Source of the DNA: Psammoneis japonica
Taxonomy: Eukaryota
DNA: 38,682 nucleotides
NCBI GenBank assembly: GCA_008632985.1
Contig: QPGO01000180.1
Location: 97,332-136,013 of the forward strand
Reading direction: 5' to 3'
This document shows positions 1 through 38,682 of this stretch, one piece after another; position 1 is the stretch's first letter; each line of letters starts with the position of its first letter. The notes below the pieces were generated by a model that saw nothing but the letters and a program-made list of their open reading frames with translations, did not search any database and was not told the DNA's origin. Position numbers and translations under genes: made by a program.

Positions 1-16
1 CATCCAGTGCACCATT

Positions 17-3018: not shown

Positions 3019-3205
3019 ATCCCCCCCGAACCGATCCTGCAAAAGACATACGATTTCCGGTGATTAACTTCTACTAACGGAAACAAAGCATGCAACAGTG
3101 GGGGAAGAGATAACAATCCCCCCATCGACGTATCGGAAGCCTCTCGGCTCTCGGCACATGACAGAGAGGGGTGATAAGCATAATACACCTCACCTCAAGG
3201 AAAAG

Positions 3206-9150: not shown

Positions 9151-9229
9151 ACGCGATTCTTAAGTCATGCATTTTTAATCAGTGACTTATTAGTGTACAC
9201 GCATACTATGAAATAATGGCGGCTTTCTC

Positions 9230-12492: not shown

Positions 12493-12822
12493 TGTGAAGT
12501 TTTGATTTTAATAAGTTTTCTTGTGCTCCCTCCCTTGTTGTTTCTCCCCCCAAAGTCTTCGCAATTACCATTTATTGCTCGAAGCAGAGCGTTCCTGAGA
12601 TCGCACCCACGTCTCGGACATTGTTTGCAGTTCAATTGAGAGCGACTCTCCCCAACTTCTACCTACTGCTACTCTAGCTAGAGCTAGAGAGAGTAGCTAG
12701 ACGACTCTCTACATACTCTCTACTCTACGATCGCATCTTAGAAATACTTCCGTCCGTCTTCGTCCGGGCAGAAGATTTTTGCGCGCATTTTTCTCTTACT
12801 GCTGCGCTCACAACGAACGACC

Positions 12823-14872: not shown

Positions 14873-14999
14873 AGGGATGCAGTCTTTTGAGTGGTTCACC
14901 AAATACAATGAAAACCAGTAGTGTCTACTCCAGATAGTTTTTAGTTTCTACTTGTGTTCGTTTTACTATTTGCAAACAGGGAGAAAGACTCCCAAAAAA

Positions 15000-17900: not shown

Positions 17901-18131
17901 CAACCAACAGGCAAGCAGAGCAATGACAAACTTGAACGCAAACAACGACGGAATATTTTTGCGCCCTGACTGTTTCATCTCATAGGATAACTTATGCTGA
18001 AACACTGTGCAGTATTCTGTAGACATAGACGTACTTCTTACACCGTTGCCGTCGCCTTCCATCATGGTTCCGCTCGTTTTATTTCCTACCGGTACTGTAT
18101 GTTGCTGTATGTCTGTATGTCGTCTCGTCAT
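15000..18131 (-). CDS. core-2/I-branching (GT14) glycosyltransferase, xylosyltransferase-like, multi-exon; start codon uncertain
   Basis: YAVLTH, FVVHVDGK, RVNWGGFSMVNATL, SSYPIASN, SSQWFI, ADETFFGTVL and FARKF are GT14 motifs. N-terminal TM plus INDS..LEVFWVN...NSYEGHKF domain; Cys-containing ricin-B-like C-terminal repeats. Apparent 1-nt frameshift near 16478. Confidence 0.85.
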
Positions 18132-18601
18132 TGCGCGTCCGCCGTCGTCCGCCCGCAAAAAAATCGCAAGGGATAAAACGCGCACGTCTGCATGTGCGTC
18201 GCAAAGCATGGCGCATCGCGACATCCTCCCGGCCATGTGAACAGCCAAAGCAGAGCTGCAGGCAGAACATTGCGATGAGCTGCCATGTGGTAGAGCTGAA
18301 CATTCCTTGCTTATGTTGCATGGCACATGACTGGACTGGAATGCAAGTGGAAGCCACACGCCTCAGAAGAGCTCCACGTCTTGTCTCCTCGCTTTCAAGC
18401 CACCCAACAACAGCTTCGAGCTCTGGCTCACAGCTGCAAGGGCGGGGACAACCAAACAGACCAAACACACAATGACAGTCAAAAATTGTTGCACATGAGC
18501 CAACACAGTTGCACAAAAGCCATTCCAGGGTGAGACACCACACACGACAATTGATCAGCATCACAAAATTGCCGACGACTCAACTGCAATCCTGTTTGCA
18601 C

Positions 18602-21600: not shown

Positions 21601-21837
21601 GAGGGAGTGCATGGTCAAAATTTCGTAAGTCCGCCGTGCGGATGCGCCACATGGCAATGACCCATCCTGCGACGAGAGGGAGAGTTGGACAAATGCTGTG
21701 TGATGATGCTGTGCACAACACATGCCCAAATGTGTGTGCGGAGAAGCGACTCAACAATTAGCTGAGTGGCAATTTCTTTGCCTCTTGGGTTGTTGAGAAC
21801 CTCCCGTGCTCGTCAGGCAGTGTGCAGCATTCTGAGT
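18602..21837 (+). repeat. tandem array of ~415-420-bp units, interrupted by a TIR element
   Basis: Units start agttg(g/a)acaaatgctgtgtgatgatgc at 18602, 19023, 19436 and ~21682. The array breaks at 19773 and resumes in register at 21582. Confidence 0.92.
19774..21581. mobile_element. 1.8-kb TIR element with GG termini and 8-bp TSD (Merlin/IS1595-like ends; no transposase recognised)
   Basis: 28-bp imperfect TIRs 19774-19801 and 21554-21581 (19/28 match, ggca...gtcc...aggtggctc). TSD TAACCCAT (19766-19773) / TGACCCAT (21582-21589). Neighbouring array units show the empty site. Confidence 0.8.
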
Positions 21838-22173
21838 TGCACAACTCGGTTGCGGACCGCAATCGAAATGACTGCAATCTGCTGATTGTTTGCATCACAT
21901 GGACACAAGGATTGCAATCATGTTTGTGATCGATTGCAGTCAAGTCATGAGTGAAATTTAGTCGTGAGTCCAGGACATTTTCTGATCAATGAGGCGAACA
22001 CGGGACTGACAAGAACCGAGCGCGAGAAACGAGAACAACAGATCAAGGGTGAATTTTGGACAACATGCCCAAAAACAAATGAAAAGTCTCAATGAGGTCT
22101 CATAATTTTGGAGCAATGACCGATTGACGCGCCATTTTCATCTGGTCATTTGGTTTCTTTTTTGAAGAATGCA

Positions 22174-24760
22174 ATGAGCGTGGCTGCAGACGATGTGATG
22201 GACGTGTCGGAAGGCAGCGATGGTGAGAAATTGGTGGACACGGGGTCAAATGTAGAGGAGAAGGTGGACGACTTGGAAAAAGGTGTGCAGGGAGACAATG
22301 CACAGGTTGCTCCTTGGGAAAATGATCCTTCATTCAAAACAAGAGCAAACAGCCCTGGCAAATGAGGGACCAAGTCACCCGTGTGGGATCATGTGCTTCG
22401 CTTGGCATCAGATCACCCCAAGTCAAAAGAGGGACACATGCATGCATGCACTCTCCCTGATTGTCCCCAATGATTTGTGAAGCTGGTGAAGCCCAAGGAC
22501 AAACACTGCTGCACTGCTTCTAAAGCCATCAAGCACATGAAGGACATCCACCCCGACGACCGCGCGAATGAAGCGAAAAAAATCGTGATTTTGCAAAGCA
22601 TGAAAAACTCACGCAACAGCAGTTGGATTTTGCTGTGGTGGCCAGTGAAAAAGATGATGCTCAGGTGCATGTAAAAAATCCACTGAAAGGGTTTAAGCCG
22701 TCCGAAGATGAAATGAGATTGTCATCTCAAGCCCAGTGGCGTGCATGTTCTGAGCAAGCAATCTCCTGTCGCACCTTTGCGGACAAGCATTTTGTTCAGA
22801 TGATGAAATGTCAAGCCAGCGGAGATCCAAATGCACCTGCTCTGTTGCAATGCAAACTCAAACAATGTGTGTCGGTGGAATTTACAGTTTTCATTCGGTT
22901 TGCCATGATCATGTTTAAGCTCAAGAAACAGCAGAGTTTTGGTTTGTCCCATGCCCAAGTCATTCATGATGGAGTCACTCTTGCAAATGGCAAGAAATGT
23001 CAATCAGCTGGCATGCAGTTCATTGATCCAAGGTGGATTGAAAACACAGTGATTTGTCTTGGGTTTGAGCATTCACAACACAATGCTGATGACAAGGTTG
23101 CCGAGCCACTTCAAGACATGCTCTTGTCGATCAATGCAACTTGACGATGGAGGAAGCTGTTGCTTTGATGGCATCAGACAGTGCCGCCCTTGGAGTGTCA
23201 CGGCAGTTTGTTGAAATTGAAGACACTGAAGCATGTGATGTGCATGACGGAGACAAGACAGGACAGTCTGCAGTGGGGGCATTGGCACGCTCTAAAAACA
23301 AGGTTAAAGTTGATCCATTCGAGGATGGAGCGGCTGTGATGGACAAAGCAAAATCTGCAGCAAAGTGCTTCCGATTTGACAAGTGCTTTTCCCAGTTGGA
23401 AATGGCATGCAAGGAAGCTGGCATTGCCGCCCTCAGACCCAAACTGGACATCAACGGCACAAGGATTGATGCAGGGCACCAGCCATTGAACTGGCTCCTT
23501 CATGTGCAACGAGGCGTTGCTCACTTCCACAACAGCAACAAGGATGCCTTCATTCTCACTGATGCCTTGTGGCAGCAATGGCAAGAATTTGAGGTGGTGC
23601 TCCAAGTGACACAAGTTCTTGCCAAAATGGCACAGCATGAGATGCTCTGTGCTGCAGTGCGTGTGGCCCGCTAATTCAGAAAATGACATGTGATGCATTG
23701 ACGAGCAGTGAGTTGTCGATGGTCATGCCAGAGAAGGTTGGCAAAGACAAAAATCTGCCATGATGTGAGCAAGAGCTTGCCTCATTCTCTTCTGCAGGAG
23801 CCACGTGCTGAGAAAGGGCGATCACAGAATTTGAGCAGCGATTCTTGGGCAACACCACCAATGAGCGACTCTCAGAGCCGGGCAAATTGCACTCAACAAC
23901 CGACAGCTGCTGGCTCTTCTTCTTGATCTTCACACTGCAAGGTGCACCTCTGTGCTTTCCCAAGATGTGCAAGAACGTGCCGTGAAATGTTTGTAAAAAA
24001 GCATGTCAAGTTCTGTGTGCAACATGGCAAGCACCAGCATCAAGCCAATTGGAAGAAGAGAGCTGAGGAACAGAAGAACAAGAAAGCCAAGAAACATGCA
24101 AATGAGGCTGCTGGGAATGATGATTTGAAATCAAACAGTGCAAAAGCAGCAAAGAGACGCAAGACTGAACAAGAAGGTGCCAAGAGCAAGGGCAGCGGCT
24201 CATCACACAGCATCAACAACACCGTGGACTTGTCTTTCCTTGGCAGCTCAGGGGAGAGGAGTCTGGCTCCTCTGACAGTGAAGAGGACAATGAAGAGCCA
24301 ATTGAGTCCACTTTGGTCATGAAGACAAGGAAAAGGCATCAAAGGAATTCAAAAAAGCACTCAAACGGTGGAGTCGAAAGGAAATTGAGTGGCACAAAGA
24401 GCACCCTTCTTGTGACATTCTGGCAGATTCGCCAGACTTGATCCAGGATGTCATGAAGTTGGACATTGGAAAACTGTGCAAGAAACTTGAGTTGAGTGAC
24501 AAGAATTGGAAGATGCGTGGTTTTCTCCCTGTTGTGGCCGGCTCGTCTCGTGGTCAGATTGGAGCACTGAATGCAGAAAGCTGTGCCGAGTGAATCAGCT
24601 CGATTGCACAGTTGGCGTTGCATGACAGGAACACTTTGCTTGATGAGAAGGAACTCAGAATGTTGGCAATTCTCCATGTGAATGAATCATTCATGGTGCA
24701 CATGTGAACGCATTGCAGGGATTATGTGAAGAAATTGCAACAGTGCGGGATGACAATTGC
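22174..24760 (+). pseudogene. hAT-superfamily transposase, degenerate
   Basis: BED-finger-like KSPVWDHV...CTLPDC...KHMKDIHP; IHDGVT, MASDSAA, CDVHD (CxxH), NGTRI; C-terminal GALNAESCAE*ISS...RNTLLDEKELRMLAILHVN resembling the hAT dimerisation domain. Several in-frame TGA stops, apparently from CGA. TIRs not identified. Confidence 0.82.
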
Positions 24761-26516
24761 AAAGAACAACATCAACCCAGAAGAGTGATCATGGAATCAG
24801 CATCCTTGCAGCTTCAAACATCAAACAACAAGCAAGCAACAGCATGTTTTTTGACAGTTTGCCTTGACAACGCAGGTCAGATGCATTCAAAAAAGCAGAT
24901 GCAATGCAGTTCAATCGCAAAAAAAATCTTGCCTGCAGCACCATCACCTGCGCAGTGGGCACTCTTGCAGGGGCCAATCGCTGTTGCAATTGCAATCAAT
25001 TGTTGCACGTGGCAATCACTTTGCAATTGCAATCTTTCGATTGCTGCAAAGCCTGGTGCAATTGACGGTTGCAATCCTCAATTGTTGGGAGGAAGTCAAC
25101 GATTTTACAATGCTGCAATTGATGCAAAAGTGGCTCCAGCACACCCAGCAATGAGGGCCAGGGTCGTGAGAAAAATGACACTCAACTGTGCAAGGGTGCA
25201 CAACCAAACAGATTAAACACACTGCAACAGTCCAAAATTGTTGCACAAGAGCCAGTTGAGTTCCAAGCAAAGCCATCATGTGCAAATGATGCAAAAGCAG
25301 CATGAGGTCAGCTCCAGTGCCTTGGCTGCCAAAAATGAGGGTGAGGGCAAGATTGATCATGCTCCTCAACTCCAAGAGCACACGCGGCCAAACAAGTTGA
25401 ACATCCAGGCATTTTTGTCAGTTTCCAAGTCTGACCATCATGCACAAATGATGATGCAAAAGCAGCTCCAATGGACCCAACAACAAGATTGCCCTCAACT
25501 GCATGGAGACACATGACCAAATGAACCAGGCACCCAACATCAGTCCAAATTGTCATGTGCAAGCCAATCCAGGTGTTTTTGTCAGGTTCCAAGTCCAGCT
25601 GTCATGCACAGTCAATGAGAAGCAGTTCCTGATGCACCCCAGATTGACCGACAATGCTGGTCACTCAGGTTGAGCTCAATCCAGCAGCATGTCACTCACA
25701 TGGCACCAGCAGTGTGAACAATGGAACATTGGCATCTTGACCCACCAGAACATGAGATGAAACAAACAACTCTGAGCAAGACAAGGGCAGGCAACAGGCA
25801 AAACCATCAAAACATGACACTGCACCACAAGATGCACAGCTGCAAATCAACACACCCAATTTTCTCACAACAGCACCGCAGGTCCATCACACATGTGAGT
25901 CACAGGATGGGGGTTGTTGGTGGCATCAAGATGATCATCTTTGAAACAAGCATTGTAGAGACAAGCACCACTTTCACTTTTGATGATTGTTCAATTTGTG
26001 CGCTCATTGCTTGTCATTGGAAAAGCACCAGAAGGTGCGCAGCATGACAGCAGCAGCAGCTGATTTTGGGTGGATGGGCTGGAAATGTGTGCATCCACTT
26101 TTTCAAAGTCCTGTGACTCAGCCACATTGTTGGTCAGTCCAATGTTTGACTCAAGTGAATTTCAGGGGGTGGGTGAGGCCCTGTAGAGAGCAAACATGAT
26201 GCTGGTGCAACACCCCCAAAACATGTTGGCGTGGGGCCACTGAGTGGACAAAAACTTGCTGATGGCATCATTTTTTAGATGTGCTCCTTGCTGCAGCAAA
26301 CATCTGCCTCATTTTGACAACCCACCCACCCACCCACACACTCACACACACACAGAATGGTTTGAAATGACAACCATCACCCAGCTGCTGCTGCTGCTGC
26401 TGCTGTTTTTTTTGCCTGCAATTGTCAGATGCAAAATTCCAGGATTTCACCACAGGAAAATCACACGCTTTTTTGCGATTGGGCACAACAAAGCCAAAAG
26501 AGGTTGGCTGGGGAGA

Positions 26517-27560
26517 GCAGCAGACAAAATGCAGACAACAAGCAACAGAGTCCTCAGTGCTGAGCCAGCAGTCTCATGGTGGGCATCAATTGTGTGTGTG
26601 GGGGGCATTGCCATGTAGAAACATGAGGGGTGATGGTGGTGCTGTTTTGGCTCACAACAGCATGTTGTGTTTTGCAGGTTGTTTTGCCAGCTGCATCACA
26701 GTGCATGGTTCAAAAAACAGCTGAAATTTCAGCTCAACAGAGGAGAGCTTGCCTCATTTTTGTTGTGCTGCCTTTTGCTGGGTTTTTTGCTCAAAAATCA
26801 AAAAGTTCCCTTGGCACACAGGGGCTGTCATTGACGAGTGGGGAAAAATGAGCTGAGTCTTTTTCAAAAGGAGGGGCTGACACCTTCTTGGCCATCACAA
26901 AACAGCAAAATCAGGTGGCACCAGCAGCGCGGCAAGCTCTGGCTGTTTCATCTTGTGGGGTGACTCATGCTGGAATGCTGTGCAGCACTCAGCAGACACA
27001 GATTTGTGCTTCCAGCAGACAAAATGCAGACAACAGGCAACAGAGTTCTCAGTGCCAAGCTGGCAGTCTTGTGGGCTTCAATTGTGGGGGACAATGCCAT
27101 GCAGCAGAAACGTGAGAGGGGTGGTGGTGGTGTTTTGGCTCGCAACAGCATGTTGTGTTTTGCAGATCATTTTGCCAGCTGCACCATGATGCATGTGAGC
27201 TGGTTCAAAAAACAGGCTGGCATTTCAGCTCAACAGAGGAGAGCTTGCCTCATTTTTGTTGTGCTGCCATTTGTTGCTGGGTTTTTGTGCTAAAAAAATT
27301 CCCTTGGCACACAGGGGCTGTCATTGATGAGCTGCAAGAAATGAGCTGGATCTTTTTCAGAAGGAGGGGCCAACACCTTCTTGACCATCACACAAAACAG
27401 CAAGATTGGGTGGCACCAGCAGCCAACAGGCAAGCACAGCAGCGCGGCAAACTCGAGTGCAGACAGAGCCTTTTTTGTTCTGGCTGTTTCACCTTGTTGT
27501 GGGCGGGTGGCTCATGCTGGAATGCTGTGCAGCACTCAGCAGACACAGACTTGTGCTTCT
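26517..27560 (+). repeat. two diverged tandem copies of a ~500-bp unit
   Basis: cagcagacaaaatgcagacaac at ~26517 and ~27013; shared blocks tttcagctcaacagaggagagcttgcctcatttttgttgtgctgcc and ctcatgctggaatgctgtgcagcactcagcagacacag. Confidence 0.85.
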
Positions 27561-28267
27561 TGCACTGCCGCCACCACCACCTCTTGCCATCATGGTCTTG
27601 CTCATTTTTGTTTGTGGCTCACCCGTCACCACAACAGAAGTCGCTCAAAAATGTCGCGAGAGTCACAACCAACATTTTGCATGAGGAAAAATGCACCAAA
27701 TCATGTGCAAATGTGCAAAATGTCATGCAAAAGGGTGGCTGGAGCCAATGATTTTGTAGGAACTCAACTGAAACGTCGTCTGATCACAGTCATTTTGACT
27801 CACATGGTGAAGAGCAACGCCTTTGATCAGATTTCCCGAGAAGTTGACATTCAAACACGGATGGGCAGAGAGACGTCGTTTTTGCTGCACCACATCTATC
27901 ATACCGTAGAATCTGCCGCTACTCAAAAATTAAAATCAAGTCCGACATGGAAGGTGACCACCCGTGCCGTACCAAGGATATAACTACCGTATGTCCTTGG
28001 ACGACACCCACCGGACGGCACGCTACGCACGTCCCTTGTTGAAGGTTTGCCTGGTTGAAGGTGACGCGAGGCAGCTGACATCGATCTTCTCTCGCTTTTT
28101 ATTATTTTTTTCAAGTTTTTTTGCATTTTGTTTTCCCGTGCATAGTATTATCGCACCGGATGTGCCTTGGAGTTTGTTTCTATCAATAATTTAGGTATTC
28201 CATCCTTCGTCCAACCAACAATTCGTTCCCAAGTCTTCACATAGGGCTACGAGTCGCAGCATCTATC

Positions 28268-29755
28268 ATGAACGCCTCGAAATCCACCTCGAAGTCCTCC
28301 TCGGAAACCGCATCGAAATCCGCATCAAGATCCGCATCGAGATCCGCCTCTAAGGCGTTGAAGAGCACGGTTACGAAACTCTTAGTAGGCAGCGATGATG
28401 AGTTGTCGTGGGAGGAACTGTGCCGCATCGAGCGCCGTCGACGTGCAATTCTGGAACGAACAGAGCTTCCGTTCTTTCGCATTCTCTGCTTCTGGGACGG
28501 CACCGTTCTAAATGCATTATTTCACGATCCACTCATGTGGATTTGCATGATACTCTACGTCGGCGTCCGGCTTGGAGCAAGGCTCGGTGGGCTACCTGAG
28601 TTCTTCTCTGAACTAGGCGGTGCAGACATTGCAAGCATTGGAGGTTTTCTCATCTTCTTTTTGGGTACGCTGTATATTTTTGCCTTGTATTGTGGTTCAA
28701 TCGCCTTCCATTTGGGCTAGAAGCTAAACGCTGATTGTGTTGTTTTTCTGTTTACAGTATTCTTTGTTGTTTCCTGCAACAAGAGGTTTGATTCACTCTA
28801 TGGTCACTCAATGTCCTGTGAAGGACGTATCTTAGATGGAGCGGGCATCGCGAAGACAATCATGCCGAGAGATAATGCCTTTCGTTTCATCCGCTACATG
28901 AATGCCTTGGTAATATGTACTTTGGGTTTACTGATGCATTGATTCGGCTGGTCAAGGCTCTTCCTCGAGGTGGCTAATACTGTATTCTTTTTTTCTTATC
29001 AGCATGTTGCAGGGTATGTAGGCCTGTCTTCCACCTACACATTCAACAATTTCTTTGTAGAATTCAACAAGGCTAACCGAGTACTTACGGAAGCGGAGAT
29101 GGATCGTTTGCGAAAGATAGACGTAAATATGGGTGGTTCGGCCTATCGAGAACTTGTCACATGGTGCTTGGCCGAAGTAATTACGGCCTTTGAAGCAAAA
29201 TTGATTGATAATCGTCAGAGAGGCTTGCTATTTGGTGTCGTCCTCAAGCTTCGCGAGTCACTGAAAGTGATGTATGACATGGACGACCAACCGGTCAGCT
29301 TCTTCTACCTTCACTTTATCTGCCTACTCACGGCGATCTACCTCCCTTTGTTTGCCATCTCTGCTGCTCTCAATGCTGGTAGTGGCGATGAAGCACATTG
29401 GTTGAACGACATTCTTTCTGGTCTCATTGTGTTCTTGAACTGCATCTTCATCATTGGTCTTCGAATACTTGGACAGAAAATGAGTGATCCGTACGGCAGC
29501 GATGTGGAAGACTTGAGTGTTTTGCACTATGTAACATTCACATGGAGGATGAGCAGGCGCATGCTCGAAGCGGAGCTTCCGAAACCCATCGATCCCAAGG
29601 AAGAAGCAGCGCTTGTCGCCGAGAGTCAAGATTTGGTAGAAGGCGAGGCTTGGGAGGATCCATATTACGAAACAGACGAAAGCAATCCAGAAGACTTTGA
29701 CGATGAAACTGACGCTGAATCTCGTTCTTTGTATGACCGTTTTCTGGGTCGTTAG
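28268..29755 (+). CDS. bestrophin-family anion channel; exons 28268-28664, 28758-28909, 29003-29755 (433 aa)
   Basis: FWDGTVL, FLIFFLVFFV..CNKRF, QPVSFFYLHFI and MSDPYGSDVEDL motifs. Two GT-AG introns give a continuous 1302-nt frame. Confidence 0.88.
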
Positions 29756-30206
29756 GCTTTAATGCGGATGTAGTGAATCTAGGCCTAGTATGGAACTTGG
29801 AATGATGCATAATGCATAGCTGTTTGAAAGTTTTGTTCTCCGCTCTGCTAAAACGATAAAAAAGCTATGGTACTGTAGGCAAAGACAAATGCCGACAAAG
29901 GTTCTGACAGGGCTTTCTGCTATGATGTGAGTTTGAATCATTGAATTCTTTTGGGTCTTGGCCATAGCCGGGTAAAGCAAGCAAAAGCATAACCGGCGGA
30001 TTCCGGTAACCGCGGGCCGGATTTTCGATTCTGTTTTTGCGTCTATCCGTCATCATTTTTTGGCTCTTCTCGCTTCTATGTTTCAAGCGAACTTCCGTAC
30101 CGGTGGTATCTCCAGCTAGAGAGATAGGCTGTCTACTCAGAACTGCAGCAGAAAGTTTTTGTGCACTGTTCCATGGCAATGAACTTTTCTGCTACGGCCG
30201 GAGCTG

Positions 30207-30349
30207 ACTGTTGTAATTTATCCTTCTGGTGACTATTTCAGAGCCACCTCAGTCCTCTAAGGTCTGATCCTGAGGCTAAAATAGACAAGCTTGTTATCAC
30301 AATACTTTCTAAGAGTTAAAAGAGAATAATGACTGCTTCCATCATCGGC
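30207..30349 (-). mobile_element. solo LTR-like copy of the copia family at 34619
   Basis: Reverse complement aligns with 34620-34759, with a long identical core, and ends ...ttacaACA. No clean TSD found. Confidence 0.75.
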
Positions 30350-31830
30350 TGTTTTGTTCACTGCAGATGAGATTCTCTTCATTTATGCTCCGAATATTTT
30401 ATTCTGAGCAACGCTTTATATTTAAATTATCCCGACACAATGTGGGACATTCAGAGCAAATAAGAGTTAATTAAGGCGATAACGCCCACGCAGAGCACAA
30501 TCAGAGTCACCCCTGTGGTAGGGGAGAATATGGTGATGTCATGGTTACGTGGCAGTTTATATCTTATTCATTGTATTTTTATATAAATGTCCTCACATAT
30601 ATTTATGCATTTGTACACAAATGCTAATAGTAGCAGGAAAAATCCTGAACCATGTTCTCCCCTAAAACTCTAACCACCAAAAACCGAGGGGTCGGAAGCG
30701 CACTTTTGGGAGCTCTTTTTCTCCGCACAAAAAACACGCGTTTCGTCGACTCGACCATGACGACCTCCCGTTCTTCGTCCCCCACACCACCTGACGTGTC
30801 CCCGCCTGCCACATCTGATGCGGCAGTCCCTCCTGCATTGGCCGGTGCCGTCACACCCGCTGTCGTTGCCCAAACACAGCCGATTTGCCATCCGGAGGAT
30901 TTGGGCTTCTGTTCGCCGGATCCTGTGCCTGAAACACAAACACAGCGCCGTGATTGGTCCACTCCTGTCATTGCGTCCCCGGAAAAACTGGATTCTCATT
31001 CGCATCGCCGTGTTGTGGAAGGTGCTGATGAGCCTTCTCTCAAACGGTCTGGGGTGCAGCTCCGAAACCAAACCGACGTCAAGGTTCAGTGGGCGTGGCA
31101 GAGGAGCATCTATGACAGGAGGTGTGGTGACAACCTTTCTCAGGATGATTGTTCCTGGGCAGAACCTTGTCTGTCTGGAGGTGATTGAGACTCACCCAGA
31201 GCCCAGCGGAACCAATCGGAGCCAACAACAAGTGTCAAGATGAACCGCAGCAACATGTGAAGGAGGACGCAGCCAATGGAATGCGGGCAGAGAAGGTGCC
31301 GGCATGCAAAGTGGCAGCATGGCTGTCGACAAGGCACTGGTTTTGAAGGTCTGACAGTGATGAACACAGTGAGCATTTGCCAAAAGCATGTTGCTGCCTG
31401 CCTCCATTTCAGCAACATGCAAAAACAGCACGTTGTGCATCACATGCAGAATTCAAACGGCGAGAGTGGCCTCTTGTGGAACTGCACACAACGACCCAGT
31501 CCTGGAAAATGGAGTGGTGTCCAAGTCACATGCACCACTTGAAACCTTGCCAAGTCGCCTGCAAACAAATGCCAATTCGCTGACCTCTCCAACTTGAAAC
31601 TAAAAAACTGTGAAGGCATGCCTGCCATCCAGTTGTCATCAGGTTTCTAAGTTGCAGAGAGCTGCATGATGTGTCTGTACATTCTAAAGATTAGACTGCA
31701 CTCGAGAGCCAACCAAGAGGCACCATTCATGTCCATTGATGTGTCGTCCATCAGCAGGCCGTGGCTGCGTGGGTTTCCTGGCCCGCCGTCATCCGCCATC
31801 CATTGTGTTCCTTCCAAAGCAAAAACAACA

Positions 31831-32708
31831 ACAGCATCAACAGCGACTGCAGCAGCAAGGGCAGGATTGACAGTGTCGGGCATGCTGGGGGGCCGAAACG
31901 CAGGTGCGGCGTTGGAATTCGTGACAGTGTCTGTGGGAGGCGGTGGGGCGAGAATGAAAGAAGTGTGAGTCATTGGCATTTTATTGTGGACGTCATTGGC
32001 AAAATGCAATGACGACGCGTTCCAGGTCTAGGTGGGACCTCGCACTACTGAACTGTGACATCGATGGTTTTTTGAATCACGTCGTATGTCGCGCACGTAG
32101 ATTTCTACGTGATTTTTTCGACATTTTGTGTCATTTTACGGTACACTTATTGAGCGATCCGTCCAACAACTTTTGACATTTTTTGTTACAGCGCGATTCT
32201 ACAATGTCTTAAGAATCGCGTAGGGCAGGCGCATTTGCAAAAACGTCAAGTGGTAACAGGCATAATTGCACCACAAACTTGGCCATTTATTTGATGTTGA
32301 AGTTAAACATATATCCATTAATTAAATTCTCGTACTACGGAGCTCGCACGTAGAATTCTACGGGCCCAATGTCACACGGAGTCCCACCTAGGGCTGGAAC
32401 GCGTCTGACAGCATCAACAGTGCCTGCGGCAGCAAGGGCAGGAGTAACAGCATCGGGCATGCCAGGGGGCCGAAACGCAGGTGCGGCGTTGGAATTCGTG
32501 ACAGCATCTGTGGGAGGCGGTGGGGCGAGAATGAAAGAAGTGTGAGTCATTGGCACTTCATTGTGGACGTCGTTGGCAAAATGCAATGACAGTGTCAACA
32601 GCACCTGCGGCAGCAAGGGTGGGAGTGACAGCATCGGGCATGCCAGGGGCCCGAAACGCAGGTGCGGCATTGGAATTCGTGATGGCATCTGTGGGAGGTG
32701 GTGGAGCG
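31831..32708 (+). repeat. ~181-bp tandem repeat (about 2.6 units) split by a MITE
   Basis: Units at ~31831-32013, ~32408-32590 and ~32590-32708 share gccgaaacgcaggtgcggc(g/a)ttggaattcgtga. Confidence 0.88.
32014..32405. mobile_element. 392-bp MITE with 25-bp TIRs and 4-bp TSD (TGAC)
   Basis: GACGCGTTCCAGGTCTAGGTGGGAC at 32014-32038 and GTCCCACCTAGGGCTGGAACGCGTC at 32381-32405 (23/25 match). TGAC at 32010-32013 and 32406-32409. Confidence 0.9.
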
Positions 32709-34618
32709 TGCAAACAACAGTGTGAGTTTGCAGCATCTTGTTTTGTGCGCATCACACCCACGAGAACTGGAACAATGACATCACCTGTTGCATCAGTGTC
32801 ATTGGCAACGGTGTCAGCAGGATCGGCGTCCTGGGAAGGCGATGGGGAAGAACCACGAGGCATCATCATGGTCGAGTCGACGAAACGCGTGTTTTTTGTG
32901 CGGAGAAAAAGAGCTCCCGAAAGTGCGCTTCCGACCCCTTGGTTTTTGGTGGTTGGAGTTTTAGGGGAGCTGTGGAACAGGAATTTTTGCTTGTGGAACA
33001 TGCACATTCGTGTGCACGTCAACATTAAAACTCAACGCACGGTGAAGCCGTGCGTGCACAACCATGCACACACACACAGCTCCCCTGCCACAGGGGTGAA
33101 TCAGAGCAAATTTGGTTGTTCGGAGCCACAGAATTTTGTTCAGAGCATTGCACGCAGAGCATCAATTTGCAAATTAGAGCATTGTGCTGACATTCAGAGC
33201 GCTGCTGTGATTGTGTCCATTCAATCAGAGCACAACTCTGAATGATGTTTGGATGCCCGTGGAATCTCCATTTAATTGGAGCAAAGCTCTGAATGAACAA
33301 CGGACATTTGGCTAGAGCAAAGCTCTGAACAAACAACGGACGACGACAGCCTCTCCATTTAAACAGATCACAACCATGAACAAATTTGCTGATGCTCTGA
33401 ACAACTGTCATTTACGAAGCTGTGCTTCGATTGACTCTGTCAACAAACACATCCACCAAACCCTGACTGTGCCGGTGAAATCAATCCCAAGCAATTGTGT
33501 GTCACATTGCGTCGTGCGCATGTGTTGCATTGCCTTGTCATTTGTTGTTGTTGTTTCGGGTTGTCCTTTGGCGCCGTTTGTCAGATGCAGCTGACATGGT
33601 CTTTTGACAACACTGCACACACAATGCAAACCTGCAATTGCAAGAACCATTCAATGCGTTCATGCAAACCCAAACTGCCTTTCTTTGTCCAACCTTGCAA
33701 CTGCTTGATCCAAAAACAACATCACACTTTTCGCCACAGCACTTTGCAGGGAACAGTGGGTTGGTTTTGAAGCACACTTGAGCAAAATATTTTCTGTCAT
33801 CTTGATGGACCAAGGCATGGAACAAGTGAGCCTCCTCGCACTTGCACTGCAAACACAAACAAACAAACACAATTGGTTTGCGTGCGTGAACAAGACAACA
33901 CAACAACAGGCATGCCAAATCAACAATGACGTTTGCTCCATGCCTGCAAATTGCAAGCAGTTGTTTGATCCACTTGAGCCACAACGAGTGTTGTGGTTTT
34001 GTGTGTGCGCTTGTTGTTTGCTGTCTTTGTCTTTGTTGCAAACAAACAACAAAGTGAGAGGTGATGTTTCCAAGACACTGCGCACAATCCGCACGACTTC
34101 ACCATGCATTCTCACCGCTTTGTTTTGCAATGGATTTAACAATGGTTTAGAGTGGTTGGCTGGTTGAGTCTGCAAAAGAAATGCCATCATGACACACATT
34201 GAATGCCGTTAGATCAACTTCTCAATGGCAATCCGGAGCACCAACAATGCTCTCACCTTTTCATTTGCGCCATTTGCCATTGTCTCTTTGACCTTTCTCA
34301 TTGCAAACAACAATGGCTGTGTGAGACGTGTCCGATGAATTGCACAATTGGCTGCAAAACAATGTGATCTTACCATCTTCTGTGGTGCTCTCTCTGGCAT
34401 TTCAGCAACTGGGGATGGTTGAGTGTGGCATCCAGCAATGACGCCCCAAAGTGGTCAGAGCAATTGTTTCATTTGCAACTGGAGCACCGACAATGCTCTC
34501 ACCTTTTCATTGTTGCCACTGTTGGAAATGGTGAATTAAAAGTTCAAACACTGAAATTAGACAGTGCGAAGAAGACGCATGCGTCAGCGCTCATGTGCTC
34601 TACGTGAGGCACTGAAAC

Positions 34619-37600
34619 TGCCGATGAAAGCAGTCATCACTCTCTTTTGACTCTCAGAAAGCACTGTGATAACAAGCTTGTCTATTTTAGCCTCAGGATC
34701 AGACCTTAGAGGACTGAGGTGGCTCTGAAATGGTCGCCAGAAGGATAAATTACAACAGTTAAAAGAGAACAATCCAGCTGAGAGCTGTGAAAAGAAAGTG
34801 AGAAAGAAAAGAGTCATTCTCACGGTGTGTGAGACATTTTGCTGCTTTGCCTTTTTGTCATGAGTGGAAGAGGCAAAGGTGGAAATGGCAACAGAAGCCA
34901 AGGAAGAGGACCCTCAGGAAGGGGCAACAAGAGTGGCAAGCAAAGCAACAAGGGCATCAATGATCATGTCCATCATGTTGGAAGTGCCAAGCAAGCATCT
35001 GATTTTCAGATTGCTGCTGAGTTCATCATCAACTACATTGAGAAGACTCATGAGTTTGGAAATGACATTGCAACTGCACTCAACACTTTCACTCCATGTG
35101 ACATGAGTTCTAAGAAGCCGACTTTGCAGGTCAGCTTGACTGGAGATGACAAGGTGGACGTGCCATTGAACAAACAGCATGAAATTGAGTTCAAGACAGA
35201 ATTTGATGCTCACATTAAGAGGACCCAAACTTGTGAGAACAACCTCATCAAGGCTTGTGCTTTGCTCTGGGAGAGATGCTCCAAGGCCATGAAGAACAAG
35301 ATTCAAGCAAGAACCGACTTCCAAGCCAAAATTGAAAACGATCCTGTCGAATTGCTCAAGGCCATTAAGGAGCATGCATTGAACTGCCAAGAGCACAGGT
35401 GTGACATGGCTGTCATCTCAGATTCAATGAGAGCAGTGCTGGAAACCAAGCAGAAGGAGAAGGAGAGTCTCCAAGATTGCACCAAGAGATTCAGGGTTGC
35501 AAGGGACATCATGAAGTCTCACATTGGAGGACCAATTGTCCTCACCAAGGCAGTGCAAGGCATGTCAGAATGTGACGAGCACAATGCGGATGCTGTCAAG
35601 AAGTGTCAAGAAAAGGCATTCAGCCAATTGATGGGTTACATGTGCTTGGAGAATGCAGACCAGCGCAAGTGCGGATCAATTCTAACAGGATTGAACACTC
35701 AGCAGTCCCTCAAGAACGACCAATGTCCCAAGTCCATTGCGGAAGCCAACACGGTGTTGAGCAACCACACTTTTGACTGCGTTGGTCAGCCTGACAACCA
35801 CCGTAACAGGAACAATCGAAACAACAACTCTGGCTCCAAGAAACAAGAAGAAAACCAAGAAATCACGCTGTCCTTCGCTCAGTTAGAAGGGAGGTGTCAC
35901 TGCTGTGGCAAGGCTGGACACAATTCCAAAAATTGCTGGGAAAGGAAAGGAAAACCTCAAGCAGAATGGGCCATCAACAAGGCCAAAGCTAAGGAAGAAG
36001 CAAGCAACGCTCAAGCAAGTGACGATGCCAGCACAGCCAACTCTTCTGCCAAAGAATCCACTGGAACAAAATCCACCGTTTCAGGATGGGCTGGCACGCA
36101 CATCGATGCATCTCTCTGCCAGGATCAATCTGGCAACATGAGAGACTGGATTTTATTGGACAACCAGTCCACAACCACAATCTTCTGCAATGAGAAGCTC
36201 GTCACAGACATCCGTCCATCGGATGAAGCCATGCGTTTGCACACCAATGGCGGAGTCCTAGTCATGACACACAAGGCCACGGTGCCAGGGTTTGGTGAGA
36301 CTTGGTTTGACCCAGATGCAATCACCAACATTTTTGCTTGCTCTGACATGAAGAAGAAGCACAGAATCACAAGTGATTCTAAGCAAGACAACGCATTCAC
36401 CGTTCATCTCCCCAACAAGAAGGTTGGGTTCGAGGAGGACGGAAAAGGGCTGCATGTTTACAAGCCCAAGATTGACGACACTGGAGCTCAGCTCCAATTT
36501 GTGCAGAGTGTGGAAGAGAACAAGAAGTTCTACACTCCACGACAGTTTGAGAAAGCCAAGAGGGCCAGGGAACCATTGCACGCGTTGGGAAACCCAACCG
36601 TGAACGATCTGAAGGCCATCATTTGCGTGAACAGCATCAAGAACAATCCCGTCACAACGGAGGACGTAGATTTGGCCGAGAAGATTTTTGGACCAGACAT
36701 TGGAAGTCTAAAAGGCAAGGCAACAAGGCAGAAGCCAGACCCAGTTGTAGAAAACTACGCAGAGATCCCGAAGGAGCTCATTGCAGCACAGCACAAGGTC
36801 GCTCTTTGCCTGGACAGCCTCAAGGTGAATGGATTGCCATTCCTCACCACAGTGTCACGAAACATTTTTTATTGCACGGCACAACCGCTCAAGGACTTGA
36901 CCCAACCAACTCATCAAGAAGCTCTGGAAGATGTGCTGCGAGTCTGCAACAAGGCCGATTTGAAGGTCACACGCATTCATTGCGACAACGAATTCAGGCC
37001 CATTGGGAATGCACTAGAAGACAAGTTTGATCTCAAGGTGAACTGTGCAAATGCTCAGGAGCATGTCCCAGAAGCCGAAAGAAACAACCGAGTTATTCAA
37101 GAACGTGCCAGGGCAGTCTATCATCAGCTGCCATTCAAGCATCTGCCAAAACTCATGGTCGAAGTCATGGTCACCGAAGCTGCTAAGAAGCTCAACCATT
37201 TTCCAGCCAAGCACGGCGTTTCCAAACATTGCAGTCCAAGAATGATTCTCCATCAAAAGAATCTAGACTGTGACAAGAGCTGCAAGATCACGTTTGGCAC
37301 TTGTGTGCAAGCTCACAATGACCCGGACCCCAAGAACACCCAAGAGTCATGGACCTTGGATTGCATTTGTTTGCGCCCCACCGACAGCAACCAGATTGGA
37401 CATGAGTTGCTGCACTTGCAAACCGGCAAGAAGATCACTCGTCGCAAGGTCACCCCTGTGCCCATCACTCCCGCCATCATAAAGCAGGTTCATCGTTTGG
37501 CTGAAATGAACAAGATGCCCAACGGTCTCAAGATTCAGAACCGCACTGGAACTGTTTTGTACGACAGTGCTTGGCTTGCAGGAGTGGATTGTGATGAAGA

Positions 37601-38682
37601 TCAATTTGAAGACGAAGATTGTGATCTAGAAGAAGACATTGAAACTGAAGACGATGAGGAAGAAGAGCTAGACTGGGGAGACTGCGACAGAGTTAGTCAA
37701 GAAGAGCTGCAAGACACAACTCGGGAACAAGAATTGGATGAAGAAGCCAGCTGCATCAGCGAACAACAAGACGAGACTCAAGAAGAAACCTCCAATGATG
37801 AGCATCTCGGAGACAATGACGAAGTTGGTTCTCAACCATCAGACGGCAGCGGAATCTCACAAGAAATCGATGACATGATTGACCACATTGATGAACAACA
37901 GAGGCTGGAACAAGAGAAGGAACACTCTCCGGAAGTGCAAGAGATCATCGACGAAATGAAAGACCTGGAATCTGATGACGAATCTGGAGAGGAGCAGAGT
38001 GAAACCGAAGAAAGTGTCCAAGAAGAGCCTGTTGCTACATCCAGGGCAGGAAGGACTCTCAAACCTCCAGTTAGATTGGGAGACTGCCAATGCCATCTGC
38101 AGACTCAAGCCCATTCACAAGAAGAAGCGCGCAGCTTGGAGATGGCCAGAATCATGGCCATGACAATGTGCCAGTGGAACGAAAAGGTTAGCATGATTTC
38201 CACTGATGAAGAAGCACACCAATTTATTCAGACTTGCAGCTTGGCACGAGGACTCCAGAAGTTTGGAGAAGAAGGCCACAAGTCGGCAGTGTCAGAGCTG
38301 AAGCAAATCCATGACAGAGTGGTTTTCAAACCCATTCACATCAATGACATGACTCCTCTGGAGAGGAAGAGAGCCATGGAGAGCCTCATGTTTCTCACAG
38401 AGAAGAGAGATGGACGAATCAAGTCAAGGTTGTGTGCAAACGGAAGCACGCAACGAGAGCACATGGACCAAGACGAAACCGCCAGTCCGACAGCATCCAC
38501 AGAATCTGTTCTCATTGCAGGAGTGATTGATGCTGAGCAAGGCAGAGACGTTGTGACAGCGGACATCCTGAACGCATTTGTGCAAACGGACATCGAGGTC
38601 AAGGATGAAAAGATCATCATGAAGATCCGTGGAAGGATGGTGGACATGTTGCTGGAATTGGATTCAGACACTTGCCAGGACT
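34619..38682 (+). mobile_element. Ty1/copia LTR retrotransposon (diatom CoDi-like), 3' end outside window; putative 5' LTR 34619-34757
   Basis: TG...CA-bounded ~139-bp segment duplicated at 30207-30349, followed by a gag-PR-IN-RT polyprotein in copia domain order. Confidence 0.92.
34860..38682 (+). CDS. copia gag-pol polyprotein; open frame of 1274 codons running off the window, hypermutated and probably non-functional
   Basis: Hand translation from ATG 34860 found no stop (absent from the ORF track because it has no stop in the window). Zn knuckle CHCCGKAGHNSKNC, protease WILLDNQST, integrase IHCDNEF and EHVPEAERNNRVIQER, RT start KRDGRIKSRLCANG, ASPT, ADILNAFVQT. Confidence 0.9.
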   Translation, partial: MSGRGKGGNGNRSQGRGPSGRGNKSGKQSNKGINDHVHHVGSAKQASDFQIAAEFIINYIEKTHEFGNDIATALNTFTPCDMSSKKPTLQVSLTGDDKVDVPLNKQHEIEFKTEFDAHIKRTQTCENNLIKACALLWERCSKAMKNKIQARTDFQAKIENDPVELLKAIKEHALNCQEHRCDMAVISDSMRAVLETKQKEKESLQDCTKRFRVARDIMKSHIGGPIVLTKAVQGMSECDEHNADAVKKCQEKAFSQLMGYMCLENADQRKCGSILTGLNTQQSLKNDQCPKSIAEANTVLSNHTFDCVGQPDNHRNRNNRNNNSGSKKQEENQEITLSFAQLEGRCHCCGKAGHNSKNCWERKGKPQAEWAINKAKAKEEASNAQASDDASTANSSAKESTGTKSTVSGWAGTHIDASLCQDQSGNMRDWILLDNQSTTTIFCNEKLVTDIRPSDEAMRLHTNGGVLVMTHKATVPGFGETWFDPDAITNIFACSDMKKKHRITSDSKQDNAFTVHLPNKKVGFEEDGKGLHVYKPKIDDTGAQLQFVQSVEENKKFYTPRQFEKAKRAREPLHALGNPTVNDLKAIICVNSIKNNPVTTEDVDLAEKIFGPDIGSLKGKATRQKPDPVVENYAEIPKELIAAQHKVALCLDSLKVNGLPFLTTVSRNIFYCTAQPLKDLTQPTHQEALEDVLRVCNKADLKVTRIHCDNEFRPIGNALEDKFDLKVNCANAQEHVPEAERNNRVIQERARAVYHQLPFKHLPKLMVEVMVTEAAKKLNHFPAKHGVSKHCSPRMILHQKNLDCDKSCKITFGTCVQAHNDPDPKNTQESWTLDCICLRPTDSNQIGHELLHLQTGKKITRRKVTPVPITPAIIKQVHRLAEMNKMPNGLKIQNRTGTVLYDSAWLAGVDCDEDQFEDEDCDLEEDIETEDDEEEELDWGDCDRVSQEELQDTTREQELDEEASCISEQQDETQEETSNDEHLGDNDEVGSQPSDGSGISQEIDDMIDHIDEQQRLEQEKEHSPEVQEIIDEMKDLESDDESGEEQSETEESVQEEPVATSRAGRTLKPPVRLGDCQCHLQTQAHSQEEARSLEMARIMAMTMCQWNEKVSMISTDEEAHQFIQTCSLARGLQKFGEEGHKSAVSELKQIHDRVVFKPIHINDMTPLERKRAMESLMFLTEKRDGRIKSRLCANGSTQREHMDQDETASPTASTESVLIAGVIDAEQGRDVVTADILNAFVQTDIEVKDEKIIMKIRGRMVDMLLELDSDTCQD

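What the first reader, a model, noticed from the sequence alone, without database searches (positions are those of the whole stretch)
30207..33107. Mutation domain edges cut through elements, suggesting targeting by position rather than by element
Seen: the left end of the long-TIR element keeps TA (gtggTAgggg, ctcTAacc, TA-rich 30550-30630) while the right end is converted (reverse complement gtggCAgggg, ctcCAacc). The solo LTR near the bestrophin gene reads caatactttctaagagttaaaagagaataatg versus cagtgctttctgagagtcaaaagagagtgatg in the LTR inside the block. Similar edges lie at ~2830, ~18300 and ~27760. Inference: activity follows a chromatin domain that fades a few hundred bp from gene-side sequence, unlike pairing-defined RIP tracts.
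Basis: partly seen in the sequence, partly recalled or inferred. Interest (0 to 1): 0.78.

Follow-up and report, generated by a model that had tools for sequence, protein, structure and literature searches.

The report
Sharp edges of TA-erasing mutation domains
In what is probably a diatom genome, transposon-rich stretches have had almost every TA step rewritten to CA or TG, and the rewritten zones stop abruptly a few hundred bases from neighbouring genes, in the middle of transposons, so the process seems aimed at a chromosomal zone and not at single elements.

Summary
The window splits into TA-normal gene blocks (TA obs/exp 0.6) and TA-erased blocks (0.10; CA/TG 1.65; CpG 0.52). The edges are at 2823/2828, 18174/18183, 27893/27897 and 30671/30675, each located to within 50-100 bp. 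The direction is TA->CA/TG: at 34 conserved Tyr columns of the copia polyprotein the window has Cys 17, His 9 and Tyr 3. The edges ignore element limits. One lies 165 bp inside a 2.6-kb TIR element that has an intact 7-bp target duplication. One lies inside a 253-bp local repeat. One lies about 200 bp upstream of a host gene whose two duplicated 5' ends inside the block are converted. Multi-copy DNA is spared at 30207-30671, and DNA with single-copy depth is converted at 18183-18600 and 26339-27893. This supports targeting by position, but the edges are abrupt, not fading. Age and sequence context also matter: a young MITE inside the block is untouched, and CTAA/TTAA sites resist. The chromatin cause is untested. 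The same TpA->CpA/TpG hypermutation was reported in 2026 for Bigelowiella natans, so this looks like a new member of that kind, in a diatom-like genome, and it shows the boundaries at base resolution.

The parts
1..2823 (.). TA-erased domain D1 (TA o/e 0.10, CpG 0.62, CA/TG 1.55). Its content is unidentified.
   Evidence: none of the ORFs of 90 aa or more in it has a Pfam hit
2279..2527 (+). Repeat copy B, lying wholly inside D1. It is the partner of 2766-3018.
   Evidence: 86% identity over 253 nt; alignment
2766..3018 (+). Repeat copy A, cut by edge E1 (2823/2828). Its left 58 bp are converted independently of B; its right 190 bp are intact.
   Evidence: Of 14 TAs in 2828-3018, B has CA 5, TG 7, TA 1 and TT 1. 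There are 3 TG/CA discordances in 2766-2827. Edge support 2786-2846.
2828..18174 (.). TA-normal gene block: ankyrin (ATG 3361), HpcH lyase, HRDC/zf-PARP, P450 (10873-12492), and a GT14 'Branch' gene on the minus strand.
17736..18290 (-). 5' exon (ATG 17978, MKQSGRK plus a membrane anchor) and upstream region of the GT14 gene. It is spared up to about 18174 and cut by edge E2.
   Evidence: edge support 18116-18214
18183..27893 (.). TA-erased domain D2. It holds 413-421-bp tandem units (18602-19877), a low-copy core, and locally duplicated host-derived DNA.
26740..27790 (+). Two tandem, converted copies of the GT14 5' region (about 26740-27230 and 27231-27790).
27897..30671 (.). TA-normal block: a bestrophin-like gene (ATG 28268, stop 29755) plus 465 bp of spared repeat DNA.
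   Evidence: contig 27832-30208 ends where the repeat starts
30207..30354 (+). LTR-end-like fragment A, TA kept. It is the inverted partner of 34615-34759.
   Evidence: no TSD and no further homology
30507..33099 (.). Non-autonomous TIR element. The 20-bp termini differ only by TA versus CA. It has a 7-bp target duplication ATCAGAG at 30500-30506 and 33100-33106. Edge E4 (30671/30675) lies 165 bp inside its left end.
   Evidence: edge support 30671-30758; no Pfam hit
32014..32405 (.). Very high-copy MITE nested in the TIR element, unconverted (TA o/e 0.83, CpG 1.44).
30675..38676 (.). TA-erased domain D3. It runs to the end of the window and excludes the MITE.
34615..34759 (+). End of the presumed 5' LTR of the copia element (fragment B). 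Its outer ~110 bp form a TA island (7 TA among 23 sites).
   Evidence: p = 4e-6 per 120-bp window
34860..38681 (+). Copia-type polyprotein ORF, open for 1274 codons. Tyr is 0.6%. Conserved Tyr has been replaced by Cys or His.

Best explanation
The window, probably from a diatom, carries three transposon-rich domains in which a strand-symmetric process has converted TpA to CpA or TpG nearly to saturation. The conversions look like many independent single-site events. CpG decay, which is slower, affects the same domains. The process was applied in place to a chromosomal zone, not to each element: it stops in a step of 100 bp or less, 200-900 bp from the coding sequence of the flanking genes, and it cuts through a TIR element, a local repeat and a duplicated gene 5' region.

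Inferred, not shown: the zone is the methylated, silenced chromatin of the transposon island, bounded by active promoters and transcription units. Also inferred: the chemistry is deamination of adenine in DNA in the context T-A-(T>C>G>A), as proposed for Bigelowiella natans. Sequence that arrived after the last activity (the MITE) is untouched.
For: Conversion is real.
- In D versus N, TA frequency falls by 0.035 and CG by 0.023, while CA and TG each rise by 0.033. The other dinucleotides are unchanged.

Direction is TA->CA/TG.
- At the 34 columns where at least 70% of 27 diatom copia relatives have Tyr, the window has Cys 17, His 9 and Tyr 3. All other conserved residues are kept in 73-100% of columns.
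- The 120 listed relatives have 3.0-5.6% Tyr; the window has 0.6%.
- In four copy pairs that straddle edges, 47 TAs of the spared copy face TG 18, CA 15, TA 8 and other 6. TA is changed at 41 of 49 positions, against 14-54% for the other dinucleotides.

Conversion happened in place.
- Tandem units show TA, CA and TG at the same column.
- Copy A and copy B carry discordant TG/CA outcomes.

Both strands are hit, site by site.
- D holds 2184 CA and 1973 TG.
- 25 of 50 neighbouring events are of the same type, permutation p = 0.45.

Edges.
- The intact TSD shows that one insertion spans E4.
- Spared repeat DNA is multi-copy: summed depth is 923-3287 at 30340-30599, against about 55-65 in the gene bins. 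Converted DNA at 17668-18334 and 26339-27005 has depth 56-67.
- CpG-decay edges coincide with TA edges to within about 50-150 bp.

Speed.
- In copy B, 12 of 14 TAs are converted but only 1 of 10 CpGs is lost.

Precedent.
- TpA-only A:T->G:C hypermutation of integrated foreign DNA was measured in B. natans mutation-accumulation lines (bioRxiv 10.64898/2026.01.13.699255; Results and Discussion read).

Independent data.
- 1 of 74 related copia loci from metagenomes (L010) has TA o/e 0.13 and CA/TG 1.59. At its 20 conserved Tyr columns it has Cys 9, His 3, Phe 4 and Tyr 2, and its outcomes differ from the window's.
Against: - No epigenomic, RNA or whole-genome data were available, so 'chromatin domain' rests only on position and on CpG decay as a proxy.
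- A step this sharp (5-25 bp at E1) is sharper than one would expect from a fluctuating chromatin border.
- A MITE and a 110-bp LTR-end island inside the domain are unconverted, so position alone does not decide.
- The two in-block copies of the GT14 5' region share most outcomes, so they were converted before they were duplicated and say little about timing at this site.
- Of the 72 A>G/T>C differences in the pairs, only 35 are at TpA; 12 are at ApT and 25 elsewhere. Some of these are CpG decay read backwards, but not all are explained.
- The depths come from contigs of one sample, which may be the assembly's own, and summed contig depth is not a copy number.
- No deaminase gene could be looked for.
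Confidence: 0.6

Rival explanations
1. Repeat- or homology-defined targeting, by RIP-like pairing or small-RNA guidance. Elements are recognised by their copies. Tracts leak a few hundred bp into flanks, and they miss parts that are too short or too divergent.
For: Most converted DNA has multi-copy depth. The unconverted MITE is only about 392 bp long, which could fall under a length threshold. Leakage of RIP beyond a duplication is known in Neurospora (recalled, not checked here).
Against: - 465 bp of multi-copy DNA (30207-30671) is spared although it is contiguous with converted DNA of the same insertion.
- About 420 bp and about 1.5 kb of DNA with single-copy depth are fully converted.
- The gene-side copy of a threefold repeated 5' region is spared while the two in-block copies are converted.
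- The direction and the dinucleotide are the opposite of RIP.
Confidence: 0.15
2. History, not targeting. The edges are junctions between old, converted DNA and younger or replaced DNA (insertions, gene conversion, crossovers between converted and unconverted copies or haplotypes), and the process is long extinct.
For: The edges are razor-sharp. A young MITE is untouched. The LTR-end island is 98% identical to the spared inverted copy 4.3 kb away, as gene conversion would give. In D windows, residual TA correlates weakly with residual CpG (Spearman 0.34, p = 0.036).
Against: The TIR element that spans E4 has matching 7-bp target duplications, and the same 'CAGAGCA'-motif host sequence lies on both sides, so both of its ends belong to one insertion at this locus. 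Copy A at E1 is collinear with B across the edge, and its converted part was mutated independently of B. Four separate junction events, all 200-900 bp from genes, would be needed.
Confidence: 0.15
3. Purifying selection keeps TA in gene-flanking regulatory DNA. The mutation process itself has no edge.
For: Three of the four spared flanks are upstream regions of predicted genes.
Against: All 14 aligned TAs are intact from 5 bp beyond E1. About 40 TAs are intact in 465 bp of transposon-derived DNA at E4. Selection on single, nearly neutral sites cannot be that complete.
Confidence: 0.04
4. Editing before integration (ADAR-like editing of element RNA, then reverse transcription), or family-intrinsic TA avoidance. 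On this reading the depletion belongs to the elements.
For: The copia ORF is still open, and its LTR end keeps TA, as cis-acting ends of a lineage mobilised in trans would.
Against: - CA and TG outcomes are strand-symmetric.
- A DNA transposon, host-derived duplicates and unique flanks are converted as well.
- Tandem copies differ in outcome.
- The two arms of one TIR element differ in state.
- The 3' neighbour preference T>C>G>A is unlike the 3' G preference recalled for ADARs.
Confidence: 0.04
5. Sequencing or assembly artefact: systematic miscalls at modified bases in heterochromatin.
For: TA and CG both collapse to CA/TG only in the domain that is probably methylated.
Against: Contigs of run X1 reproduce converted stretches, for example 24783-25588 with 4 differences and 18157-18630 with 1. 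The run may, however, be the assembly's own sample. An unrelated metagenome contig (L010) shows the same signature.
Confidence: 0.02

Closest known systems
TpA hypermutation of integrated viral DNA in Bigelowiella natans (Mettrop et al., bioRxiv 10.64898/2026.01.13.699255, 2026; abstract, Results and Discussion read)
   Same: TpA->CpA/TpG on both strands. It is confined to regions of foreign or mobile DNA and leaves TpA-poor, CpA/TpG-rich clusters. TE-type Pfam families are enriched among TpA-poor CDS. The hypermutable region extends about 21 kb beyond the annotated viral insert.
   Different: - That host is a chlorarachniophyte (Rhizaria); this window's named relatives are diatoms.
- There the rate was measured directly; here only the end state is seen.
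- Depletion is much deeper here (TA o/e 0.10 against a Rho of 0.45 for the NCLDV region).
- The targets here are transposon islands plus embedded host-derived DNA.
- Edges at base resolution, coincidence with CpG decay, and the 3' neighbour preference are not described in the sections I read.
Repeat-induced point mutation (RIP) of Neurospora and other fungi
   Same: A dinucleotide-specific transition hypermutation that disables transposons and leaves compositional blocks next to genes.
   Different: - RIP is C:G->T:A at CpA and makes TpA; here the flow is the reverse.
- RIP is defined by duplicated sequence, whereas here multi-copy DNA is spared and single-copy-depth DNA is hit.
- RIP creates stop codons. 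This process cannot, so ORFs stay open.
5mC deamination decay of methylated transposons (known in diatom methylomes; recalled)
   Same: CpG->TpG/CpA loss is confined to the same domains (CpG o/e 0.52 against 0.96), with edges within about 50-150 bp of the TA edges.
   Different: It cannot remove TpA, and it is much slower here (1 of 10 CpGs lost against 12 of 14 TAs in one copy). The TIR element has lost its TA but keeps a CpG o/e of 0.67-0.78.
ADAR / APOBEC editing of retroelements in animals
   Same: Deaminase-type transition clusters in mobile elements. ADARs prefer a 5' U (recalled).
   Different: Those act on RNA or cDNA of the element, on one strand and in clusters. Here both strands are hit with no clustering, DNA transposons and flanks are affected, and pyrimidines are preferred 3' of the target.

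Membership tests
TpA-targeted A:T->G:C hypermutation (B. natans type) | Changes are almost exclusively A->G / T->C | tested here: met
   Conserved Tyr became Cys or His in 26 of 34 columns. In the edge-straddling pairs, 72 of 119 differences are A>G/T>C in the N->D direction, against 24 reverse transitions and 23 transversions. The pairs also carry older divergence.
TpA-targeted A:T->G:C hypermutation (B. natans type) | Restricted to TpA dinucleotides | tested here: inconclusive
   At the composition level, only TA (and CG) are depleted and only CA/TG are gained. TA is changed at 41 of 49 positions, against 14-54% for the others. However, only 35 of the 72 A>G/T>C differences are at TpA, and ATA->GTG occurs 4 times.
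TpA-targeted A:T->G:C hypermutation (B. natans type) | Confined to discrete regions of foreign or mobile DNA | tested here: met
   Three domains with step edges. They hold copia, TIR and repeat content. They also include host-derived duplicates.
TpA-targeted A:T->G:C hypermutation (B. natans type) | Elevated de novo mutation rate measured in living lines | not testable with these tools
   Only contigs of one sample were available. Relative speed was inferred: 12 of 14 TAs against 1 of 10 CpGs changed.
RIP | C->T at CpA, giving TpA excess | tested here: not met
   TA o/e is 0.10 and CA/TG 1.65 in the domains. The direction is TA->CA/TG.
RIP | Tracts delimited by duplicated sequence | tested here: not met
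   Multi-copy DNA at 30207-30671 is spared, and segments with single-copy depth are converted. Caveat: summed contig depth at 80% identity or more is only a rough copy proxy.
ADAR-type editing of retroelement RNA | Strand-asymmetric, clustered A->G confined to the element | tested here: not met
   D holds 2184 CA against 1973 TG. Same-type neighbours are 25 of 50. A DNA transposon and the flanks are also converted.
Ty1/copia LTR retrotransposon (diatom CoDi-like) | Polyprotein with RVT_2 and a gag zinc knuckle; relatives are copia elements | tested here: met
   RVT_2 hit with E = 3e-6, below Pfam's cut-off. 143 relatives, and all listed full-length ones carry PF07727; the named ones are from Fragilaria crotonensis and Epithemia. 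The 3' LTR lies outside the window.

The most novel reading that the evidence does not exclude
Diatoms, like the chlorarachniophyte B. natans, run a DNA-level TpA editing defence that is guided by chromatin state and not by sequence homology. On this reading it rewrites everything inside a silenced domain, host-derived DNA included, up to a fixed barrier beside active promoters, so heterochromatin borders become fossilised in the sequence at a resolution of 100 bp or better. Because it can never create a stop codon, it leaves long open but dead reading frames. Its presence in two SAR lineages would point to an old or repeatedly evolved eukaryotic genome-defence system.
Probability: 0.45. Interest if true: 0.85.

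Novelty: new member of a known kind. Interest (0 to 1): 0.72.

Why it matters
A transposon-disabling hypermutation that runs in the direction opposite to RIP has so far been described once, in a 2026 preprint on a chlorarachniophyte. My six literature searches found no report of it in diatoms.

Diatoms are an ecologically dominant group with genetic tools, so finding the same signature there near saturation would make the mechanism experimentally approachable.

The edge anatomy adds something the preprint sections I read do not address. Targeting follows position, the boundary is a step next to promoters, and it coincides with CpG decay. This narrows the search to chromatin- or methylation-recruited enzymes.

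There are also practical consequences:
- Converted domains lack TAA and TAG, so they produce many long spurious ORFs: 77 ORFs of 90 aa or more with no credible Pfam hit.
- Converted copies fall below the identity thresholds used in repeat annotation.

Tried and rejected
- Whole genome: none is held for this window.
- RNA evidence: no RNA holder is listed among the public runs. Transcript ends and editing were not tested.
- Contig laying: only 40 of 1431 variant places were shown, so I could not count how often other copies carry TA where the window has CA or TG.
- Extended homology between the two 148-bp inverted pieces: none (score 158 against a shuffle maximum of 155.5). I could confirm neither the 'solo LTR' reading nor a TIR reading, and no TSD is present.
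- TA island at 31573-31692 (5 TA of 28 sites, p = 1.5e-3): rejected as a true island, because 4 of the 5 TAs lie in the resistant CTAA/TTAG context.
- Strand-run test for processive one-strand events: negative.
- tRNA and Rfam scans of the window: nothing.
- Pfam on 77 ORFs from the converted blocks: nothing credible.
- Metagenome scan with the MITE terminus: 0 matches.
- Protein Atlas for taxonomy: uninformative.
- The third homology search was wasted on 'longer' lengths. Lineage therefore rests on 6 named diatom hits: the only named P450 relative, at 40% identity, and 5 copia relatives.
- Earlier findings of this scan: nothing relevant.
- The SPLASH preprint turned up by a search was irrelevant.
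Full report
WHAT IS THERE. The window is eukaryotic, with compact genes that have few introns: ankyrin, an HpcH-type lyase, an HRDC/zf-PARP protein, a P450, a GT14 'Branch' enzyme and a bestrophin-like protein. The only named relative of the P450 is from the diatom Thalassiosira punctigera, at 40% identity. The five named relatives of the copia polyprotein are from the diatoms Fragilaria crotonensis and Epithemia. I therefore treat the source as probably a diatom. The closest P450 in the protein collection is 87% identical, so the organism itself is not in it. No whole genome is held.

THE OBSERVATION. A sliding dinucleotide profile shows two states. Gene blocks have TA obs/exp 0.61, CA/TG 1.13 and CpG 0.96. 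The other blocks have TA 0.10, CA/TG 1.65 and CpG 0.52, and all other dinucleotides are unchanged. The loss of TA (0.035) plus the loss of CG (0.023) roughly equals the gain of CA and of TG (0.033 each). A two-state HMM on the 7682 TA/CA/TG sites gives D 1-2823, N 2828-18174, D 18183-27893, N 27897-30671, D 30675-32023, N 32029-32389 and D 32395-38676. Step-model change points are located to 2786-2846, 18116-18214, 27852-27902 and 30671-30758, with log-likelihood gains of 26-85. The edges it gave as ~18300 and ~27760 sit about 120-140 bp from the TA edges and nearer to the CpG-decay edges.

DIRECTION. TA is the ancestral state. I aligned the open 1274-codon copia ORF (34860-38681) with 27 full-length relatives. 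At the 34 columns where at least 70% of the relatives have Tyr (codons TAY), the window has Cys (TGY) 17 times, His (CAY) 9 times and Tyr 3 times. Every other conserved residue type is kept in 73-100% of its columns. The 120 listed relatives have 3.0-5.6% Tyr; the window has 0.6%. In four copy pairs that straddle an edge, 47 TAs of the spared copy face TG 18, CA 15, TA 8 and other 6. TA is changed at 41 of 49 aligned positions, against 14-54% for the other dinucleotides. This is the reverse of RIP.

HOW THE PROCESS BEHAVES.
- It acts on both strands equally: 2184 CA against 1973 TG in the domains.
- It acts site by site. Neighbouring events are of the same strand type in 25 of 50 cases, permutation p = 0.45.
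- It acted in place. The tandem 413-421-bp units show TA, CA and TG at one and the same column, with 7 columns where one unit still has TA. Copy A and copy B at the first edge carry discordant TG/CA outcomes.
- It is fast relative to CpG decay. In copy B, 12 of 14 TAs are converted but only 1 of 10 CpGs is lost. The TIR element has TA o/e 0.09-0.10 but CpG 0.67-0.78.
- Survival of TA depends on context: CTAA 0.52, TTAA 0.49, GTAA 0.25, CTAG 0.20, CTAC 0.17, ATAA 0.13, GTAC 0.08, ATAG 0.03, ATAT 0.02 and ATAC 0.007 of the gene-block density. Read per strand, this is a 3' neighbour preference T>C>G>A after T-A.
- It cannot create a stop codon, which follows from the code. This explains the open but dead copia frame, and the 77 ORFs of 90 aa or more in the converted blocks that have no credible Pfam hit.

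THE EDGES AGAINST THE ELEMENTS.
- E4 (30671/30675). The element at 30507-33099 has 20-bp termini that differ only by TA versus CA, and an identical 7-bp target duplication (ATCAGAG) on both sides. It is therefore one insertion. Its first 165 bp, and the 300 bp of repeat DNA to its left (from 30207), keep TA (o/e 1.09 and 0.77). The rest is erased. The last TA in a sensitive context is at about 30634. The arms have no TA sites between 30675 and 30782, so the true resolution here is about 100-150 bp.
- E1 (2823/2828). This edge lies inside copy A (2766-3018) of a 253-bp repeat. The left 58 bp carry three TG/CA discordances with copy B. All 14 aligned TAs to the right are intact, starting 5 bp from the edge.
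- E2 (18116-18214). This edge lies about 200 bp upstream of the predicted ATG (17978, minus strand) of the GT14 gene. The gene's 5' exon plus upstream region (17736-18290) has two further copies inside the block (about 26740-27790), and both are converted.
- E3 (27893/27897). This edge lies 371 bp upstream of the predicted ATG of the bestrophin-like gene. E1 lies 535 bp upstream of the ankyrin ATG. E4 lies 916 bp beyond the bestrophin-like stop codon. These gene models are ORF-based predictions.

REPEAT STATUS. I laid the Logan contigs of the only three listed runs on 17001-37000 at 80% identity or more. All three runs come from one sample, which may be the assembly's own. Summed depth is about 55-67 in the gene bins, and also at 17668-18334 and 26339-27005, both of which include converted DNA. 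It is 1600-5900 at 18335-22336, about 230 at 22337-26338, about 4200-4700 at 30341-31674, 51,000-101,000 over the MITE bins, and 1000-2500 at 33009-37000. At single places inside the spared repeat the depth is 2149 (30340), 923 (30417) and 3287 (30599, 30 contigs). A contig at single-copy depth runs from 27832 to 30208 and stops where the repeat begins. So spared DNA can be multi-copy and converted DNA can be single-copy, at least at 80% identity or more. Summed contig depth is only a rough proxy for copy number, and old converted copies may have drifted below 80% identity.

WHAT DOES NOT FIT A PURELY POSITIONAL RULE.
- The ~392-bp MITE at 32014-32405 sits inside the domain with TA o/e 0.83 and CpG 1.44. 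Either it is younger than the last activity, or it is too short to be seen.
- The last ~110 bp of the presumed copia 5' LTR (34648-34760) keep 7 TAs among 23 sites (p = 4e-6 per window). Three of them are in sensitive contexts. This stretch is 98% identical to the spared inverted copy at 30207. It could reflect gene conversion, a protected site, or conserved cis-acting ends of a lineage that is still mobilised. I leave it unexplained.
- The two in-block copies of the GT14 5' region share most conversion outcomes, so conversion preceded their duplication.
- In the pairs, 37 of the 72 A>G/T>C differences are not at TpA. Some are CpG decay seen from the other side. ATA->GTG (4 cases) hints at a secondary target.

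MECHANISM. Shown: a TA->CA/TG conversion that is domain-limited, strand-symmetric and context-dependent; the CpG-decay domain coincides with it to within about 50-150 bp; the edges are steps close to genes. Inferred: the domain is the methylated, silenced chromatin of the transposon island, and the step is a fixed barrier at promoters or transcript ends. For the chemistry I favour deamination of adenine in DNA, as the B. natans authors propose through an ADAT2-like enzyme. The natural ADAT/TadA target A34 always follows U33, which is a recalled fact. The pyrimidine preference 3' of the target does not match what I recall for ADARs. Thymine oxidation of the 5hmU / base J type, which also favours TpA (recalled), is a weaker alternative. 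None of this could be tested without the genome.

RIVALS. I consider homology-defined targeting with leakage, historical junctions, selection on flanks, pre-integration editing and artefact. The evidence is given in their sections, and together I give them about 0.4.

COMPARISON WITH WHAT IS KNOWN. The closest known case is the B. natans preprint. It reports 231 of 302 new mutations in two integrated viral regions, all at TpA, in only some lines, plus 124 TpA-poor clusters. The present case shares the signature. It differs in lineage, in depth of depletion and in target (transposon islands including host-derived DNA), and it adds base-resolution edges, coupling to CpG decay and a neighbour preference. 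Six literature searches found no report in diatoms.

INDEPENDENT OCCURRENCE. Of 74 related copia loci from metagenome contigs, 73 have TA o/e 0.50-0.84. One (L010, 2351 bp, 49% protein identity to the window's element) has TA 0.13, CA/TG 1.59 and 0.4% Tyr. At its 20 conserved Tyr columns it has Cys 9, His 3, Phe 4 and Tyr 2, with outcomes that differ from the window's. The signature is therefore not peculiar to this assembly.

VERDICT. The reading 'position rather than element' is supported. 'Fading' is not: the edges are steps. The chromatin cause is plausible but untested. This is a new member of a kind that has only just been described. Interest is 0.72.

Noticed in passing
window 32014-32405: A ~392-bp MITE with termini GACGCGTTCCAG..CTAGGTGGGAC and a probable TGAC target duplication. 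The summed contig depth over its bins is 51,000-101,000, against about 58 for single-copy DNA. It is inserted between 181-183-bp tandem units of the host TIR element.
   Followed up: partly
window 18602-19877 and 21573-21837: 413-421-bp tandem units at high summed depth (1600-5900). They contain a T-arm-like GGGCTTCGAACCC motif, but ARAGORN and Rfam find nothing. This may be a SINE-like or satellite repeat.
   Followed up: partly
window 26518-27790 versus 17736-18290: The 5' exon and upstream region of the GT14 gene are present three times. The two extra tandem copies lie at the far end of the 9.7-kb converted block, so the block is flanked by direct repeats of host sequence.
   Followed up: partly
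window 1-2823, 18183-27893, 30675-38676: Because TAA and TAG are nearly absent, both strands of the converted domains carry many long open frames (77 of 90 aa or more, none with a credible Pfam hit). Gene finders would be expected to over-call here.
   Followed up: yes
window 27760-27897: The last ~130 bp of the converted domain have no TA but still hold 7 CpGs. At this edge the TA-erased zone reaches about 50-170 bp further towards the gene than the CpG-decayed zone.
   Followed up: partly
window 12829-12964: A 69-bp tandem duplication (97% identical) inside the ORF at 12742-13620, within the gene block.
   Followed up: no
L010:1-2351: A metagenome contig carrying a different copia family with the same TA-erased, Tyr-to-Cys/His signature. 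The 73 other related loci fetched with it are normal.
   Followed up: partly
window 34648-34760: A TA island at the end of the presumed copia 5' LTR. It is 98% identical to the spared inverted fragment at 30207-30310. It remains unexplained.
   Followed up: partly
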